64,000 nucleotides of DNA, from the IMG/VR virus record IMGVR_UViG_3300021387_001438, positions 1 through 64,000 of that record; one strand, 5' to 3'. This DNA is from a virus (Duplodnaviria > Caudoviricetes). Position numbers and translations under genes: made by a program. The notes beneath the pieces were generated by a model that saw only the letters and a list, made by a program, of their open reading frames with translations, searched no databases and was not told the origin of the DNA. Shown here one piece after another: positions 57,720 to 63,472 of the stretch (its first letter is position 1; every line of letters begins with the position of its first letter).

Positions 57720-58101
57720 TTTTAAGTTCCTTTCTTGTTAAGGCCCACCAATTTCCATAATCTTTTAAAGGAAAGTCATAATACATTCCTCTACTGCATA
57801 CATATAATCTATTGTTAAAAAACTCATAGTCTAAATCATCAAAGAATTTTTCTTTTATTATTCCATAAGTTTCTTTGATATACACATACTTTTGCTCATT
57901 TGCTTTCTTACATATTTCAATAGTATTGTTGATGGATTCCAATTGTTGGAGTGCTTGTTCAATAATTGATAAATCGTTTAATGATTTTTCAAAATTTATA
58001 TAATCCCTACTATCTTTAGAACCTTGTAAAACAAGCCCACACATTTCATGCTTTATAACAGTTTTTATTTTACTTAATGCTTCTAAATATTCTTTACTCA
58101 T
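57712..58101 (-). CDS. Hypothetical protein
   Basis: 129 aa ORF. Confidence 0.55.
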   Translation of the reverse strand: MSKEYLEALSKIKTVIKHEMCGLVLQGSKDSRDYINFEKSLNDLSIIEQALQQLESINNTIEICKKANEQKYVYIKETYGIIKEKFFDDLDYEFFNNRLYVCSRGMYYDFPLKDYGNWWALTRKELKNE

Positions 58102-58114
58102 TCTAACACCTCGA

Positions 58115-58381
58115 TTACTTCCCTAATTTTTTTATTTTCTTTACTTTTACAAGTCTATATTGATAAGCTTCGTCCTCTTCATTAATTAAGCAATCAGTTC
58201 TTGAATTATAAGATGTATTATTCCAAATACTAGCACAATGATACACAAATCTTTTTAAATTTTCTCCAAAGCAATTTCGTGCTTCTTTTCCATCATCTCT
58301 TGCAATAACTACCCTAGGGTCTTCTTCGCCTTTACTAGCAACAATATAAATTCTTCCGTCTTTATCTTTAAATAGTTTCAT
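58115..58381 (-). CDS. Hypothetical protein
   Basis: 88 aa; RBS AAGGAG. Confidence 0.55.
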   Translation of the reverse strand: MKLFKDKDGRIYIVASKGEEDPRVVIARDDGKEARNCFGENLKRFVYHCASIWNNTSYNSRTDCLINEEDEAYQYRLVKVKKIKKLGK

Positions 58382-58393
58382 TCTTCTTTCTCC

Positions 58394-58636
58394 TTATTTC
58401 AAAAATTCTTTATTACACTTTGGACAATAATCTAAATCAGGTTTTTCAATCAATCTAGGATTATCTTCCACCAATAGCTCATTGCAATATGGACAATGAT
58501 ACTCTGCTCTTAAGGTTGTTCTATTGATAACCAGTTCTAACTTCTTAAGCTCAGGTTGCTTTTCTTTTTTCTTTCCAAATAATCCCATCAAAATCACCTT
58601 CTTAATATCCTTCAAAATAAAGTTCAATTCCTTCAT
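58394..58636 (-). CDS. Small zinc-ribbon protein
   Basis: HCPYCNE...YCPKCNK; true start likely MGLFG. Confidence 0.55.
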   Translation of the reverse strand: MKELNFILKDIKKVILMGLFGKKKEKQPELKKLELVINRTTLRAEYHCPYCNELLVEDNPRLIEKPDLDYCPKCNKEFLK

Positions 58637-59144
58637 TTAATTCAAGGCAAGCTTTACTAAACTTACCTTCATAATGTAGATTTTTAAATCCTATCAAATT
58701 AATTAATCTTACTCCAATAAATAAATATGAGCGAGTATATACATCTATCATACAAGACGTTACTTCATTTATGCTTTTTCCTTGTATATACTGACGTGTG
58801 AAATTTGCAGTAGGAATACATCCTGGATTAACAACTGTTAATAGAGAATCCCATTTACTACAATCATAATCACTATCTTTTGGTTCACGCTTTAAATATT
58901 TTAGAGTAAATTCATTATCTTTTTTAGCCTTTTTTGTAAAGTATTCCTCAGTTTCAATAATATATTTATCTATTGCTTCAAGTATAGGAGCTAATTCCTT
59001 AATTTTAAACTTTTCAAAACAACTCTCTTCATCAACAATACATCCTTGTCTTTTTAATTCTTCTAGAAATTGCTTAGGACACTCATTGTTACCAAATAAT
59101 TGTTCTTTATGTTCTCCACATATTGCATAAATTCTATAACTCAT
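58602..59144 (-). CDS. Hypothetical protein
   Basis: 180 aa ORF. Confidence 0.55.
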   Translation of the reverse strand: MSYRIYAICGEHKEQLFGNNECPKQFLEELKRQGCIVDEESCFEKFKIKELAPILEAIDKYIIETEEYFTKKAKKDNEFTLKYLKREPKDSDYDCSKWDSLLTVVNPGCIPTANFTRQYIQGKSINEVTSCMIDVYTRSYLFIGVRLINLIGFKNLHYEGKFSKACLELNEGIELYFEGY

Positions 59145-59305
59145 ATTTACTTCACCTTCTTTATTCTAGTTTCTTATTGTTAAAATATTCTTCATCAAGT
59201 TCTGTTCTTTTTGATGCTACTAGCATACACCAAATTATTAACAATAAAGTTATTAATATTAAAAATCCTAAAATACATAATGTCCATATAACCCATAGTT
59301 GCATA

Positions 59306-59722
59306 TTATCGCCACTCTCTTATATTAAAATTTTCACCATTATCAAAATCTAATACATGAATTCTTACAGCTTTATTATCATACCTAGAAGTCTTATATG
59401 ATATTTCTCTACAGAAGAATTCTTTAATATACTTATCATAATCTTGACATATAATAAACAGGTTATCAAAATTATTACGATATTCAAATATTAAATCTGT
59501 AAATTCTGGATAATTTATTTTACCCATATGAGGAAAATCATCAACAATTAAATTCTTATAGTAGAATTGTTCACCAGTATATTTTTCTATAAAGTCAAAT
59601 TCAGTAACCTTTGACCAACAATATTTATCTATATTTTCATCATAGATAACATTTTGTGCAAACCAAGTTTTACCACATGGTCCTTTTCCATGAATTATAT
59701 AGATATCTTTCATATCAATCAC
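59306..59722 (-). CDS. Small P-loop NTPase (SF3/Rep-helicase-like fragment)
   Basis: YIIHGKGPCGKTWFA Walker A; LIVDDF Walker B. Confidence 0.6.
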   Translation of the reverse strand: MIDMKDIYIIHGKGPCGKTWFAQNVIYDENIDKYCWSKVTEFDFIEKYTGEQFYYKNLIVDDFPHMGKINYPEFTDLIFEYRNNFDNLFIICQDYDKYIKEFFCREISYKTSRYDNKAVRIHVLDFDNGENFNIREWR

Positions 59723-60036
59723 TCCTTTTTATCAGGATTATTTTCTTCTTTATTTTCTAATTTATTTAATAATTCTGTTAATGCTTTTTCATCACCAAGA
59801 GGAATTTTAAATACTTCAACATCTGGATTATCTCCAGGAAGTATCTTATCAATTCTAGCATTCATTTCTTTTAAGTGAGCTTCTTTTAATTTTAAATCCA
59901 ACTCACATGCTTTTATTTTTACTCTCATTGCTGCATTTTGAATTCTTGTACAAGAGTAATAATATCCAAGAAAGAAAGATAAAATCGGTAAAAGGCAACA
60001 AATAATTACTAATGCTACAACAATATTTGTGTTCAT
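59719..60036 (-). CDS. Single-pass membrane protein
   Basis: N-terminal TM helix, then coiled coil. Confidence 0.55.
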   Translation of the reverse strand: MNTNIVVALVIICCLLPILSFFLGYYYSCTRIQNAAMRVKIKACELDLKLKEAHLKEMNARIDKILPGDNPDVEVFKIPLGDEKALTELLNKLENKEENNPDKKE

Positions 60037-60050
60037 ATAATCAACTCCTT

Positions 60051-60791
60051 TTATAAATTCTCACAAATCCAATTATGACAGATAGTTGTATCAACAATTA
60101 CCTCTGATTCATTACGAGCTTCATAGCATGCCAAGATAGCATCTGGATTTGTAATGACCATTTTATATAATTTTGGATTTGTATTATTTCCAGCTTTATT
60201 AAATCTTTCAGCAAACCATCTTGCTTTTTCTTTATCAACAGTCCATGATAAACCTTCAGGCTTTCCATTATGACTTACTCCTCGATAGACAGTTACTCCT
60301 GCTGGAAGTGAAGCAAGTCTTTTTAGAGTATTAAATGTATCAATCTCTTTTTTATCCATCAAGAAATCTTTATTTGCTTTTTTGAAATATCTTATTAGTT
60401 CTCTTCTATTTACATTATTATCTTGATTTGGCCATTCTTCCATTACATAGAATTCAGATAATAGCTTTGAAAAATCTTCATTAGATAAATAGATATTAAC
60501 ATATTTGAAGAAAGTCAAGTAATAACTTTTATTTAACAACATGACAATTCCAAACAAATCTTTTGCATTATCAATCTTTTCAAATGTTTCAGACTTAAAG
60601 ATTTCATAATCCTCTTTTTTATATAAATCTAAAATTTTTGGATTATCTTGATTTTCTTTTACTGATACATATAAATTATTACTTGTAAACGGATGTTGAA
60701 TTATAAAAGGAATTTTTGTTGCTTTAATTGGCACTGCCAAAAATAGCAACTTACTCATTTCTTTAATCTTATCTAAATTAGTTTGTTTCAT
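60051..60791 (-). CDS. ADP-ribosyltransferase-fold protein (R-S-E type), putative
   Basis: VTVYRG, GLSWT and RNESEVIV motifs in the C-terminal ~90 aa. Confidence 0.55.
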   Translation of the reverse strand: MKQTNLDKIKEMSKLLFLAVPIKATKIPFIIQHPFTSNNLYVSVKENQDNPKILDLYKKEDYEIFKSETFEKIDNAKDLFGIVMLLNKSYYLTFFKYVNIYLSNEDFSKLLSEFYVMEEWPNQDNNVNRRELIRYFKKANKDFLMDKKEIDTFNTLKRLASLPAGVTVYRGVSHNGKPEGLSWTVDKEKARWFAERFNKAGNNTNPKLYKMVITNPDAILACYEARNESEVIVDTTICHNWICENL

Positions 60792-60819
60792 ATTTCATAC
60801 TCCTTAATTTTATTTTTTT

Positions 60820-61442
60820 TTGCCTCTACCATACACTAGCTCACTTTGCCTACACACTACCATACTCGACTCTACCATAACATGACTGCCTGTTACTTTA
60901 CCATAACTGGTCTACTCCTCGCTTTGCCGAAACTTCACTTTACTAAACCTTACCTTTGCATTTCAAATCTTGACTTCGCCCATACGATATTATGCTGGAC
61001 CCAACGTCACCGATACATTGTTACACCAATCTTTGCCTAAACTAGGATGTACTATACAATTCCAAAACGGTACCATAAATTGCTTTGCCTAAGCTCCACG
61101 ATGCAAGACTTTACCAATACTCTACCTTACGTCACTAGACTTCACCTTGACAATACCATGTCTTACTTTACCACAACTAAACACTAATTAACTTCGGTCC
61201 ACTTTGCCTTGACTAAACTTATCTACACCGATACTGTTTATTAGTCTACTATACTGTACCTCTACCTTACCAAACTTTACCATAGCACGACCAATCCTTA
61301 CATCACCTTCACTAAACTTAATGGCACTTTACTTTTCCGTAACATAACCTTTCAAGACTATGCCAATGCACAACTTCTCTTTAATACACTTTGCCAAAAC
61401 GCCACCCTACCAATCTTGACTTATCCATTACAAGACGAGGCC
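60820..61442 (-). repeat. Pentamer-periodic array 1 (NGY-NN units in about 23 blocks); candidate guide-RNA array
   Basis: - strand reads e.g. GGC aa AGT gt ATT aa AGA ga AGT tg TGC a tt GGC at AGT ct...; no - strand ORF of 60 aa or more in 620 nt; C-rich + strand unlike the rest of the genome. Confidence 0.9.
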
Positions 61443-61478
61443 TATACTTTATTTAATATATATTAATATAGGATTGAA

Positions 61479-61501
61479 GGAGAGAGACTAAATCTCTCTC
61501 C
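61479..61501 (-). terminator. 9-bp hairpin centred on the RAMP stop codon (terminator or processing site)
   Basis: GGAGAGAGA-CTAAA-TCTCTCTCC; the loop contains the TAG stop. Confidence 0.55.
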
Positions 61502-62078
61502 AACTGAATGAACCCTTACCGGAATTACGCCACTGAAGAAGTCCATTGAATTTTCCATAATCTAACCATTCTTTAATTAATGGTAGGTCTTCATCACACA
61601 ACATAACAATCTTAAATTTACATGTTGCACCGGCAGCAATTTCTTCAGAAATAGCAAGCGAGATTCTTTCACCCTGCATTGTTTGACATCTTAGAGGTCT
61701 CTGACATTCTGTGATTTCAGAATAATTCTCAATCACATTTTCTCTTCCTTCAACAAATACTCTTAGGTCAATATGCTTCTTGAAGGCTTTTAATTGACTA
61801 GATAGAGTACCTTTAACTTTTGATAGTGCTGAACATGCAGACTTGAAGAATCCTTTTAACTGATAGTCATAAATAAATGGCTTACCATCTTTGGTTCTTG
61901 GAAAGAATGTTTTACCTTTATCAACAACATTATCTTTTCCAATGGCTTCAATCTCTTCTTCTAGCTTCTGAGCATCTGGAGCCTTACTACCGATGAATGA
62001 ACGATATACATCTTTATCTCCTGTTTGAGTTCCTAATAAACCCTGTAAAAAAGTTACTTCAATATTTAATGTTTTCAT
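61488..62078 (-). CDS. Stand-alone RAMP / Cas7-like protein (196 aa)
   Basis: RBS AAGGAGA at 62091-62097 before ATG 62078; first strand LNIEVTFLQGLLG, PFIYDYQLKGFFKSAC, C-terminal glycine loop YGKFNGLLQWRNSGKGSF. Confidence 0.75.
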   Translation of the reverse strand: MKTLNIEVTFLQGLLGTQTGDKDVYRSFIGSKAPDAQKLEEEIEAIGKDNVVDKGKTFFPRTKDGKPFIYDYQLKGFFKSACSALSKVKGTLSSQLKAFKKHIDLRVFVEGRENVIENYSEITECQRPLRCQTMQGERISLAISEEIAAGATCKFKIVMLCDEDLPLIKEWLDYGKFNGLLQWRNSGKGSFSWREI

Positions 62079-62152
62079 AATTTGTTTTAATCTCCTTAAT
62101 TTATTATTTGTTTTAATCTTCTGAATTTTTTGGTCTTCACATCTTGGATAAT

Positions 62153-62461
62153 CTACATCTTTTGCCAATGCCATACAAAACCACACTTTACCATTACCGG
62201 ACCGGACAATACTTTTCCATTGCACTTTTGGACAATACTTTACCAACACGACAGCCAACTATTCTATGCTGGTACTTTACCAACACTGTTCCAAGCTATT
62301 CCATTACAGTACCATACCAAACCTTACCAACACTCCACTGAACAAGGCCTTGCCGTCACAAATCTTTTCTTGGTATCACATCACCATCACAAAACCACGC
62401 TTTACCATTACCGTCACAACGCCACACCTCACCGTCACAACGCCACACATCACCGATACTT
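62153..62461 (-). repeat. Pentamer-periodic array 2 (same grammar, about 13 blocks)
   Basis: - strand e.g. GGT aa AGT at TGT cc AAA ag TGC a at GGA aa AGT at TGT cc GGT cc GGT a at GGT aa AGT; 21-nt block duplicated at 62410-62451. Confidence 0.88.
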
Positions 62462-62465
62462 TTAG

Positions 62466-62783
62466 TTACAAGAAATCTACGATGAAGTTTGTGATATATG
62501 CCATAAACAATACTTTATCTTTGGTATAGAACGACATATAGGTTTCTCCTGTCGACTTGTCACAGGTGTAGCAAGAATATAATCCGGAAGAATTTGTATC
62601 TGACGATGGATAGTCAAACACTAGTTTAACTTCTCTTGAATTACCATCAAGATTAAATTTAGTTGGCAAATCTTTTTCTTTTAATTTTTCTGACAAAACC
62701 CGTTTGATAAACTGAACTGCCAAATTATCTTGTAGGTCTGGAGAATTAACTAATTCCGTCAAATTCTTAATTTCTTTCTGCAT
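62466..62783 (-). CDS. Hypothetical early protein
   Basis: 105 aa; RBS GAGGTG. Confidence 0.6.
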   Translation of the reverse strand: MQKEIKNLTELVNSPDLQDNLAVQFIKRVLSEKLKEKDLPTKFNLDGNSREVKLVFDYPSSDTNSSGLYSCYTCDKSTGETYMSFYTKDKVLFMAYITNFIVDFL

Positions 62784-62821
62784 CTTCTCACCTCACTTTC
62801 TTTTTTGATTTTGGTAATACA

Positions 62822-63043
62822 TTAGGTCCAAATGAAATCTACTACATTTACTGTGATATCATTATGCTTGTAGACTTCAACTAATTTATCAAGTGTAGAT
62901 AACCTTATATCACCTGCAATATCTAGATTCTTTTCTAATCCAGATTGGTACACTAATTTTGCTTTCATGATTAATTTTTTATTATCACTTGACACATCTT
63001 TTAATGAATCTTTTACATTGATAATCATATTGATAACCTCCAA
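62822..63043 (-). CDS. Hypothetical early protein
   Basis: RBS GGAGG; true start likely MIINVKD. Confidence 0.55.
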   Translation of the reverse strand: MEVINMIINVKDSLKDVSSDNKKLIMKAKLVYQSGLEKNLDIAGDIRLSTLDKLVEVYKHNDITVNVVDFIWT

Positions 63044-63114: not shown

Positions 63115-63472
63115 CATATTTTTAATAAAATTTTATTTTTTTTCTTCTTATAAAAATACGTGTGTGCACATATGCACACGTAATAAAAAATAAAATATAA
63201 ATAAGATATGAACATGAATAAAATAAAAAATATTTATATTCATAATGATGCACCCAAAATATTTTGAATATATGACTGTTCAGAAATATTTATTATGTTT
63301 TATGGATTTTTAGTATACCTAAAATTTGAATACGATTATAGCTTGATTGTTTTGATTTTGGATTGTGTGTTTAACGATTTATAGGAGAATATTTTAGGCA
63401 CATCATTATAAATATAAATATTAAATTTGATTGATTTGAATATTAAATTTGATTGATTTATTTTCTATATTT

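What the first reader, a model, noticed from the sequence alone, without database searches (positions are those of the whole stretch)
60820..62461. Solo Cas7-like (RAMP) gene sandwiched between two pentamer-coded non-coding arrays: candidate RNA-guided system
Seen: a 196-aa ORF with RAMP hallmarks (first beta strand, P.I...QLKG.FK.A helix, terminal G..QWRNSGKG.F glycine loop). About 620 nt downstream and about 310 nt upstream consist of NGY-NN pentamers on the same strand. There is no cas1/2/3/5/6/10 and no repeat-spacer CRISPR. The module lies third in the first early operon. Established: Cas7 RAMPs polymerise on guide RNA with a fixed nucleotide period per subunit. Inference: each subunit grips the conserved (N)GY and presents the variable nucleotides as a gapped guide, used to silence or block host genes or competing phages. 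From memory, this resembles the recently reported VIPR systems (Cas7-ancestral Vipr plus GGY/NN repeat RNAs); I cannot verify that here, and this locus deviates from that grammar.
Basis: partly seen in the sequence, partly recalled or inferred. Interest (0 to 1): 0.97.

Follow-up and report, generated by a model that had tools for sequence, protein, structure and literature searches.

The report
Phage VIPR system, single-G short-module arrays
A 75-kb gut phage carries a lone Cas7-like protein gene between two long RNA-guide arrays written in five-base steps. It is a genuine example of the VIPR RNA-guided DNA-silencing systems first published in 2026, with an unusual guide format, and is not a new kind of system.

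Summary

VIPR systems (a Vipr RAMP plus pentamer vrRNAs) are published in bioRxiv 10.64898/2026.04.26.720920 and .720927. A profile of this protein family aligns end to end with the Escherichia phage SUSP1 Vipr family (E 6e-5; reversed controls 0.6). In 76 of 80 homologous loci from bacterial genomes, mostly gut Clostridia MAGs, a same-strand period-5 array lies next to the gene.

The grammar departs from GGY/NN. Units are G-Y-N-N-N. They are grouped into 21/26/31-nt modules by one extra base, and each module opens with GGYAAA. There is no 3' tail and no conserved accessory gene. The paper's Methods list YNNNG repeats, so this is a new member of a known kind.

Arrays change by whole-unit and whole-module indels between phages with identical or near-identical Vipr.

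No target was found under any reading rule.

This scan has already reported VIPR-like loci in at least 168 other genomes.

The parts
62161..62462 (-). Upstream vrRNA-like array: about 57 G-Y-N-N-N units in about 12 modules. It contains a 21-nt module duplication at 62406-62455.
   Evidence: Lag-5 G autocorrelation 0.41. Segmentation. TRF finds period 21 x 2.4 copies. Identical in the near-identical phage L020 except for one exact 5-nt unit indel.
62079..62160 (-). Non-periodic leader of the vipr gene, with AAGGAG at 62092-62097.
   Evidence: Read directly from the sequence. The units lose G/Y phasing here.
61488..62078 (-). vipr-like gene: a 196-aa Cas7-fold RAMP (P0001).
61479..61501 (.). 9-bp inverted repeat (GGAGAGAGA / TCTCTCTCC, 5-nt loop) overlapping the vipr stop codon. 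Role unknown.
60822..61445 (-). Downstream vrRNA-like array: about 119 units in 23 modules of 21/26/31 nt. It runs up to the ribosome-binding site of the next gene.
   Evidence: Lag-5 G autocorrelation 0.36. Module list. Junction statistics. The RNA is no more structured than shuffles (z +1.09).
62466..62783 (-). 105-aa ORF just upstream of the array. It is an ORFan and not a conserved partner.
   Evidence: No Pfam, PHROG or PADLOC match. Only 2 database relatives. A 49%-identical copy sits next to vipr in L021 only.
60051..60791 (-). 246-aa gene after the downstream array (phrog_4776, function unknown). It is not conserved next to vipr elsewhere.

Best explanation
This is a phage-encoded VIPR system: a Vipr-family RAMP plus two arrays that encode its guide RNAs.

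Inferred mechanism, by analogy with the published SUSP1 system. The arrays are transcribed with the minus-strand operon. Vipr protomers polymerise on the RNA, one per 5-nt unit. The conserved G and Y of each unit are held by the glycine loop, where W183 and R184 align with SUSP1 W178 and R179. The variable bases are displayed to pair discontinuously with double-stranded DNA. Binding then silences transcription of a competitor, such as a resident prophage, a satellite or a superinfecting phage in a gut Clostridia-type host.

Particular to this branch. Only G-Y is fixed. The two residues that read the first G in SUSP1 are changed: D177 aligns with Q182, and the loop carrying H17 is absent. The array is cut into modules of 4-7 units by a +1 step. 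Each module opens with GGYAAA, which I take to be the start, processing or nucleation signal of one short guide.

Shown: the fold, the remote homology, the periodic grammar, the gene-array linkage and the module-wise turnover. Inferred: transcription, binding, the pairing rule and the targets.
For: Fold. All top PDB matches are Cas7-type RAMPs covering residues 1-196. The model has a long beta-hairpin thumb at 122-147 and an unstructured glycine loop at 175-190.

Homology. The family profile A3 against the SUSP1-Vipr profile A2 gives E 6e-5 locally over 183 collinear columns and 5e-6 globally. Reversed controls give E about 0.6. PDB entry 36pp confirms that the SUSP1 protein used is the solved Vipr.

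Same locus plan as SUSP1: array, vipr, array on one strand.

Linkage. All 16 viral or metagenomic relatives and 76 of 80 genome-contig relatives have a same-strand period-5 array next to the gene. The background is 0 of 6000 windows.

Guide-like evolution. In homologous array blocks, position 1 (G) changes at 2.9%. Positions 3-5 change at 8-11%, and position 2 changes mostly C<->T. The arrays differ by one exact 5-nt unit between near-identical phages. Two phages with identical Vipr differ by 21/26/31/46-nt module indels. At 83% vipr nucleotide identity the array is about 62% identical.

Grammar precedent. The published Methods list YNNNG and NNNNG repeats, and later work lists WGT/NN-type cores.

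Setting. The locus is on a complete 75-kb phage with terminal repeats.
Against: There are no expression or binding data.

Sequence similarity to a validated Vipr is remote. Pairwise BLAST finds nothing and the hhalign probability is only 64-70%.

The arrays lack three features of the characterised type II vrRNAs. The first G of GGY is absent (G is only 16-26% at that position). Runs of 9-16 units are absent. The structured 3' tail is absent.

Modules of 4-7 units would specify only 8-14 bp under the published NN rule. Perfect matches of that size occur by chance even in the phage's own genome.

No target was found under any rule. No conserved vap gene is present.
Confidence: 0.85

Rival explanations
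1. The parts are the same, but the complex acts on RNA, as type III and type VII Cas7 filaments do. It would bind or block transcripts rather than double-stranded DNA.
For: The closest solved folds are RNA-targeting Csm3, Cmr4 and type VII Cas7. No DNA target was found.
Against: The only characterised relatives (SUSP1 and P. fulva Vipr) bind dsDNA on either strand. The profile alignment to that family is end to end. Fold resemblance to Csm3 is expected for any RAMP.
Confidence: 0.07
2. The periodic tracts are not guides. They would be DNA-level elements (protein-binding iterons, curved DNA or a recombination substrate) or translated repeats that merely sit beside a RAMP-fold gene.
For: No transcription data exist. 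Plus-strand ORFs of 64-111 aa overlap the tracts.
Against: A 5-nt period cannot keep a reading frame. Indels of 5, 21, 26 and 31 nt occur between near-identical phages. The G phasing is on the gene's strand in nearly all of about 96 related loci, which points to a transcript. The plus-strand ORFs follow from the low G content of that strand.
Confidence: 0.04
3. It is a decayed remnant of a phage-borne type III or type VII CRISPR-Cas locus, with a lone cas7 and a degenerate array.
For: The weak sequence hit is to the type VII Cas7 glycine loop (E 0.47 with the single sequence, 4e-6 with the profile).
Against: There are no repeat-spacer units. No Cas1 or Pfam RAMP match exists in the genome. The family comprises 1,970 clusters at 50% identity and keeps the same solo-gene-plus-pentamer layout, so it is a maintained system and not debris.
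Confidence: 0.02

Closest known systems
Type II VIPR of Escherichia phage SUSP1 (vipr KT454805.2 28474-29061, vap1, four vrRNAs; bioRxiv 10.64898/2026.04.26.720920 and .720927; PDB 36pp)
   Same: A RAMP of about 195 aa encoded on a phage. Pentamer arrays lie upstream and downstream on the gene's strand. The profile alignment is collinear, and the G-loop W-R pair that holds G2 and Y3 is conserved.
   Different: SUSP1 units are GGT-NN, in runs of 10-12, each followed by a structured tail of about 40 nt, and a vap1 gene is present. Here the units are GY-NNN and run continuously for 300 and 620 nt. They form 21-31-nt modules set off by a +1 step with GGYAAA, with no tail and no conserved vap. The residues that read the first G (D177, H17) are not conserved.
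VIPR systems with alternative repeats (NNNGG, YNNNG, NNNNG) and 'staggered' arrays (same preprint, Methods and fig. S17/S18 legends); non-canonical cores such as WGT/NN (bioRxiv 10.64898/2026.10.21.760802)
   Same: The YNNNG grammar is the same as G-Y-N-N-N here. Arrays are continuous, with no tails between guides. A 57%-identical relative (L004) has an upstream array of canonical GGY-NN guides. They are joined by a shared G (GGTATGGCAG|G), which fits the legend's '1 nt overlapping' description.
   Different: Here the phase step is +1 (a 6-mer), not -1, and it recurs every 4-7 units. The figures are not held in the library, so I could not check whether this +1 short-module form is among those drawn. 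The non-canonical clusters of the second preprint are said to repeat 10 times.
Csm3, Cmr4 and Cas7 backbone subunits of type III and type VII CRISPR-Cas
   Different: Those subunits bind 6-nt steps of a repeat-spacer crRNA inside multi-protein complexes, and many cleave RNA. This protein stands alone, has a helical insertion at residues 20-55, and is paired with 5-nt repeats.

Membership tests
VIPR (Vipr + vrRNA) | Sequence homology to an experimentally characterised Vipr (SUSP1). | tested here: met
   The homology is remote. hhalign of A3 against A2 gives E 6e-5 locally and 5e-6 globally over 183-202 collinear columns, with probability 64-70%. Reversed controls give E 0.6. Pairwise BLAST finds nothing, and a narrow profile did not hit the SUSP1 genome.
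VIPR (Vipr + vrRNA) | Non-CRISPR context: no CRISPR array and no other cas genes. | tested here: met
   No repeat-spacer array. No Pfam Cas1 or RAMP hit in the whole genome. The neighbours have no Pfam or PADLOC match. The other cas families were not each searched.
VIPR (Vipr + vrRNA) | Tandem pentanucleotide repeats beside vipr on its strand. | tested here: met
   The linkage holds in 16 of 16 and 76 of 80 related loci.
VIPR (Vipr + vrRNA) | Canonical GGY/NN unit. | tested here: not met
   The position of the first G is G in only 16-26% of units. The units fit the alternative YNNNG grammar that the same paper assigns to VIPR.
VIPR (Vipr + vrRNA) | Conserved core with hypervariable N positions among relatives. 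| tested here: met
   Substitution rates are 2.9% at G against 8-11% at positions 3-5. Changes at Y are mostly C<->T. Arrays diverge faster than vipr.
VIPR type II (SUSP1-like) | vrRNAs of 9-16 repeats capped by a conserved structured 3' tail, plus vap1. | tested here: not met
   Modules have 4-7 units with no tails. The fold z-score is +1.09 and there is no Rfam hit. No conserved neighbouring gene.
VIPR (Vipr + vrRNA) | Array RNAs are expressed and co-purify with Vipr. | not testable with these tools
   Needs small-RNA sequencing and a pull-down.
VIPR (Vipr + vrRNA) | Targets are recognised by the 1-nt skip rule (xNN). | tested here: inconclusive
   No match above shuffled controls in the phage's own genome or in relatives' loci. 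Exact scans of viral and metagenome contigs gave 0 hits. The power of these tests is low.
Type III / type VII CRISPR-Cas | A repeat-spacer CRISPR array and partner subunits (Cas10/Cas5/Cas6, or Cas14-type). | tested here: not met
   Not every Cas family was searched.

The most novel reading that the evidence does not exclude
The +1-phased short-module array may be a distinct guide architecture with its own reading rule. It is typical of this very large gut-phage branch: 105 of 107 arrays have it, and the modal module is 6 units. Under this reading each 21-36-nt module that opens with GGYAAA is one guide. Because the pocket for the first G is lost, all three variable bases of a unit would pair. 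The target would then be read as contiguous triplets, or with a different skip, and not by the published xNN code. The module size of 5-7 units would match one turn of the Vipr filament, which has 5-6 subunits per turn in the SUSP1 structures. My data show that positions 3, 4 and 5 evolve alike. They neither support nor exclude this reading.
Probability: 0.15. Interest if true: 0.6.

Novelty: new member of a known kind. Interest (0 to 1): 0.35.

Why it matters
VIPR is a recently described RNA-guided DNA-recognition system, proposed by its discoverers to be older than CRISPR. This locus adds a clean, complete-genome example from a very large branch of gut Clostridia phages (1,970 protein clusters at 50% identity).

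The guides in this branch are written differently. One fixed G plus a pyrimidine is followed by three free bases, and short modules are delimited by an extra base and GGYAAA. If the branch is characterised experimentally, it could show how guide length is set without a 3' tail, a Cas6 or a ribozyme. It could also show whether loss of the first-G pocket changes the recognition code. Both would bear on using Vipr proteins as compact programmable DNA binders. As a discovery in itself it is not new.

Tried and rejected
1. Translated repeats: rejected, because of the 5-nt period and non-triplet indels.

2. Structured RNA, ribozyme-interspersed array or riboswitch: no Rfam hit, and the fold is no better than shuffles.

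3. Self-targeting: the best matches of every module under six pairing rules equal the shuffled controls.

4. Targeting of relatives' vipr loci: no excess.

5. Coding imprint: stop-like triplets at the three variable positions looked depleted (42 observed against 65 expected). This is explained by general TA depletion and AAA excess, so it was dropped.

6. Using substitution patterns to tell whether position 5 is read: positions 3, 4 and 5 evolve at similar rates, so the test is uninformative.

7. Database scans.
- A canonical 11-unit guide from L004 under the xNN rule gave 0 hits.
- An 18-nt contiguous reading of one window module gave 1 hit. Its flanks do not continue the match, so I take it as chance.
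- A two-module in-phase xNN pattern gave 0 hits in viral and in metagenome contigs.

8. A conserved accessory gene: none found.

9. A weak period-5 signal at genome position 74.4 kb is not an array.

10. The SUSP1 Vipr structure (36pp) is not in the structure-search libraries, so no direct structural superposition was possible.

11. MEGABLAST of window 58000-63000 against the phage collection found nothing. tblastn found four unannotated human-faecal phage records at 49-58% identity.

Full report
**What the window is.** The window is the first 64 kb of a complete 75,358-bp virus record with direct terminal repeats, at 29.5% G+C. Structural genes lie on the plus strand up to about 33.7 kb. A long block of small genes runs on the minus strand from about 63.0 kb down. 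The finding sits at the head of that block. After promoter-like sites at 63114-63086 and 63051-63024 come a 73-aa ORF, a 105-aa ORF, a periodic tract, the 196-aa ORF, a second periodic tract and then a 246-aa gene.

On the minus strand, G recurs with a lag-5 autocorrelation of 0.41 upstream and 0.36 downstream. Secondary peaks drift to lags 10-11 and 15-16. In 200-nt windows along the whole 64 kb this statistic averages -0.015 (sd 0.083). It exceeds 0.3 only at 60.8-61.5 kb and 62.1-62.5 kb.

- A dynamic-programming segmentation gives 5-nt units with G at position 1 in 81-83% and a pyrimidine at position 2 in 74-87%. Three compositionally similar variable positions follow.
- About one unit in six is a 6-mer, and its sixth base is G in 83%.
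- The unit after each 6-mer is always G-Y. It is GYAAA in 15 of 35 cases, against 1 of 104 internal units (Fisher p = 3e-8).
- The arrays are therefore strings of modules of 21 nt (8 modules), 26 nt (13) and 31 nt (9). Each module opens with GGYAAA.

**The protein.** The protein (P0001) has no Pfam, PHROG or PADLOC match.

- An AlphaFold2 model built on 35 homologues has mean pLDDT 82.7.
- Foldseek against the PDB gives 140 matches at E <= 1e-3. They are headed by type VII Cas7 and type III-A Csm3 at E about 1e-7.
- The model has the RAMP hallmarks: a long beta-hairpin thumb (122-147) and a C-terminal glycine loop.
- A profile of the family hits the glycine loop of type VII Cas7 at E 4e-6.
- In BFVD the best match is a 55%-identical phage protein already labelled 'Cas system-associated RAMP superfamily protein'.

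VIPR systems are described in three 2026 preprints.

- A Vipr protein of about 20 kDa is a minimal RAMP found mostly in phages and proviruses.
- It polymerises one protomer per pentamer on vrRNAs made of GGY/NN repeats.
- It sequesters GGY and presents NN to pair with dsDNA, skipping every third target base. The outcome is transcriptional silencing of competing mobile elements.
- The Methods state that some loci use NNNGG, YNNNG or NNNNG repeats. 'Staggered' arrays and ribozyme-interspersed arrays are also reported.
- A later preprint reports further non-canonical cores such as WGT/NN.

**Direct comparison with SUSP1.** I located the characterised SUSP1 locus by its own lag-5 signal. It has the same plan: array, vipr (195 aa), vap1 and array, all on one strand. 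Its units are GGT-NN in runs of 10-12, each followed by a tail of about 40 nt. PDB entry 36pp confirms that this protein is the solved Vipr.

- Pairwise BLAST between the two proteins finds nothing.
- With a diverse profile of this family (A3, 62 sequences drawn from 50%-identity representatives) against a SUSP1-family profile (A2), hhalign gives a collinear alignment of 183 columns. E is 6e-5 locally and 5e-6 globally, with probability 64-70%. Reversed-sequence controls give E about 0.6.
- In that alignment the SUSP1 G-loop GDWRPRFGRF pairs with GQWRNSGKGSF here.
- W178 and R179 hold the second G and the pyrimidine in the cryo-EM structure. They correspond to the near-invariant W183 and R184 here.
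- The two residues that read the first G are not kept. D177 aligns with the near-invariant Q182, and the loop bearing H17 falls in a gap.
- This matches the array grammar, in which the first G of GGY is not conserved. The mapping rests on a remote alignment, so it is inference.

**Gene and array travel together.** The family is very large: 3,927 hits in the 90%-clustered collection and 1,970 clusters at 50% identity.

- All 16 viral or metagenomic relatives examined have a same-strand period-5 array beside the gene.
- So do 76 of 80 loci from bacterial genome assemblies, with three more just under the threshold and one on a truncated contig. None of 6,000 background windows reaches the threshold.
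- Those assemblies are mostly gut Clostridia MAGs: Oscillospiraceae, Ruminococcaceae and Lachnospiraceae from human, rabbit and ruminant samples.
- Of 107 arrays in 92 loci, 105 are of the single-G type seen here. On average 12% of their units are 6-mers and almost none are 4-mers.
- The second base is clade-specific: Y here, C in L011, A/C in L005.
- Over 1,167 modules the size distribution peaks at 6 units. The shares are 18% at 5 units, 22% at 6 and 15% at 7.
- Neighbouring genes are not conserved. The 105-aa ORF is an ORFan. The small genes after vipr in a sister clade have no family match. In this branch the system is therefore 'solo'.

**The arrays evolve like guide arrays.**

- A near-identical phage (L020, vipr 98% identical at nucleotide level) has an identical upstream array except for one exact 5-nt unit.
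- Two phages with identical Vipr protein (L022 and L024) differ by indels of 21, 26, 26, 26, 31 and 46 nt, that is by whole modules.
- At 83% vipr nucleotide identity (L021) the array is about 62% identical apart from its first module.
- Across 12 pairs with homologous blocks, substitutions hit position 1 at 2.9%. Position 2 changes at 11.0% (22 of 38 changes are C<->T), and positions 3, 4 and 5 at 7.7%, 10.9% and 10.9%.
- These indel sizes exclude translation.
- The array RNA is no more structured than shuffled sequence (z +1.09) and matches no Rfam family. That suits a protein-coated single strand.

**What remains open.** The reading rule and the targets are unknown. Under the published NN rule a module specifies only 8-14 bp, and perfect matches of that size arise by chance even in the phage's own 75 kb.

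Either guides span several modules, or all three variable bases are read, or many short filaments act together. Six pairing rules gave no excess over shuffled controls in the phage's own genome or in relatives' loci. A few exact-pattern scans of viral and metagenome contigs found nothing beyond one chance hit. These tests have low power and do not count against the model.

**A relative with two array types.** The relative L004 (57% identity) carries two kinds of array around one vipr gene. Upstream are canonical GGY-NN guides of 13-20 units, joined by a shared G at GGTATGGCAG|G. This fits the preprint's description of staggered, 1-nt-overlapping vrRNAs. Downstream is a short-module array like the one here.

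**Verdict.** The locus is a real VIPR system of a published kind. It belongs to a very large gut-phage branch with YNNNG-type units and a +1-delimited short-module layout. I could not see the preprint's figures, so I cannot say whether that layout has been drawn before. I therefore file it as a new member of a known kind and keep the distinct-code possibility as the novel case. Earlier notes of this scan report the same kind in at least 168 other genomes. I did not use them as evidence.

Noticed in passing
L004:2081-2490 and L004:3588-3908: One vipr gene (57% identical to P0001) is flanked by two different array types. Upstream are canonical GGY-NN guides of 13-20 units joined by a shared G (GGTATGGCAG|G, a -1 step). 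Downstream is a short-module single-G array with +1 steps. One protein may therefore serve both grammars.
   Followed up: partly
L022:3381-3425 and L022:3096-3380 (also L024): In a sister clade (75% identity) a 90-94-aa gene abuts the vipr stop codon. A GC-rich hairpin with a T-run follows it, before the array starts. The small gene has no Pfam match and differs about 29% at nucleotide level between two phages with identical Vipr. It is a possible clade-specific accessory gene.
   Followed up: partly
L095 and L096 (contig JAGCAN010000001.1, 23954-27571 and 71847-75464): Two copies of the vipr-plus-array locus, with arrays that share essentially all seeds, lie about 48 kb apart on one 86-kb contig. 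This could be a concatemer, an assembly artefact or two copies of one phage.
   Followed up: no
window 62406-62455: A 21-nt module is duplicated in tandem (2.4 copies, 89% matches) inside the upstream array, that is, duplication in units of whole modules.
   Followed up: partly
window 63417-63459 and 127-307: A perfect 22-nt direct repeat (x2) lies in the AT-rich region upstream of the minus-strand operon. A 79-nt repeat (2.3 copies) lies near the left genome end. They may be regulatory or packaging-related.
   Followed up: no
window 61479-61501: A perfect 9-bp inverted repeat overlaps the vipr stop codon. No T-run follows it, so it is not a typical terminator.
   Followed up: no
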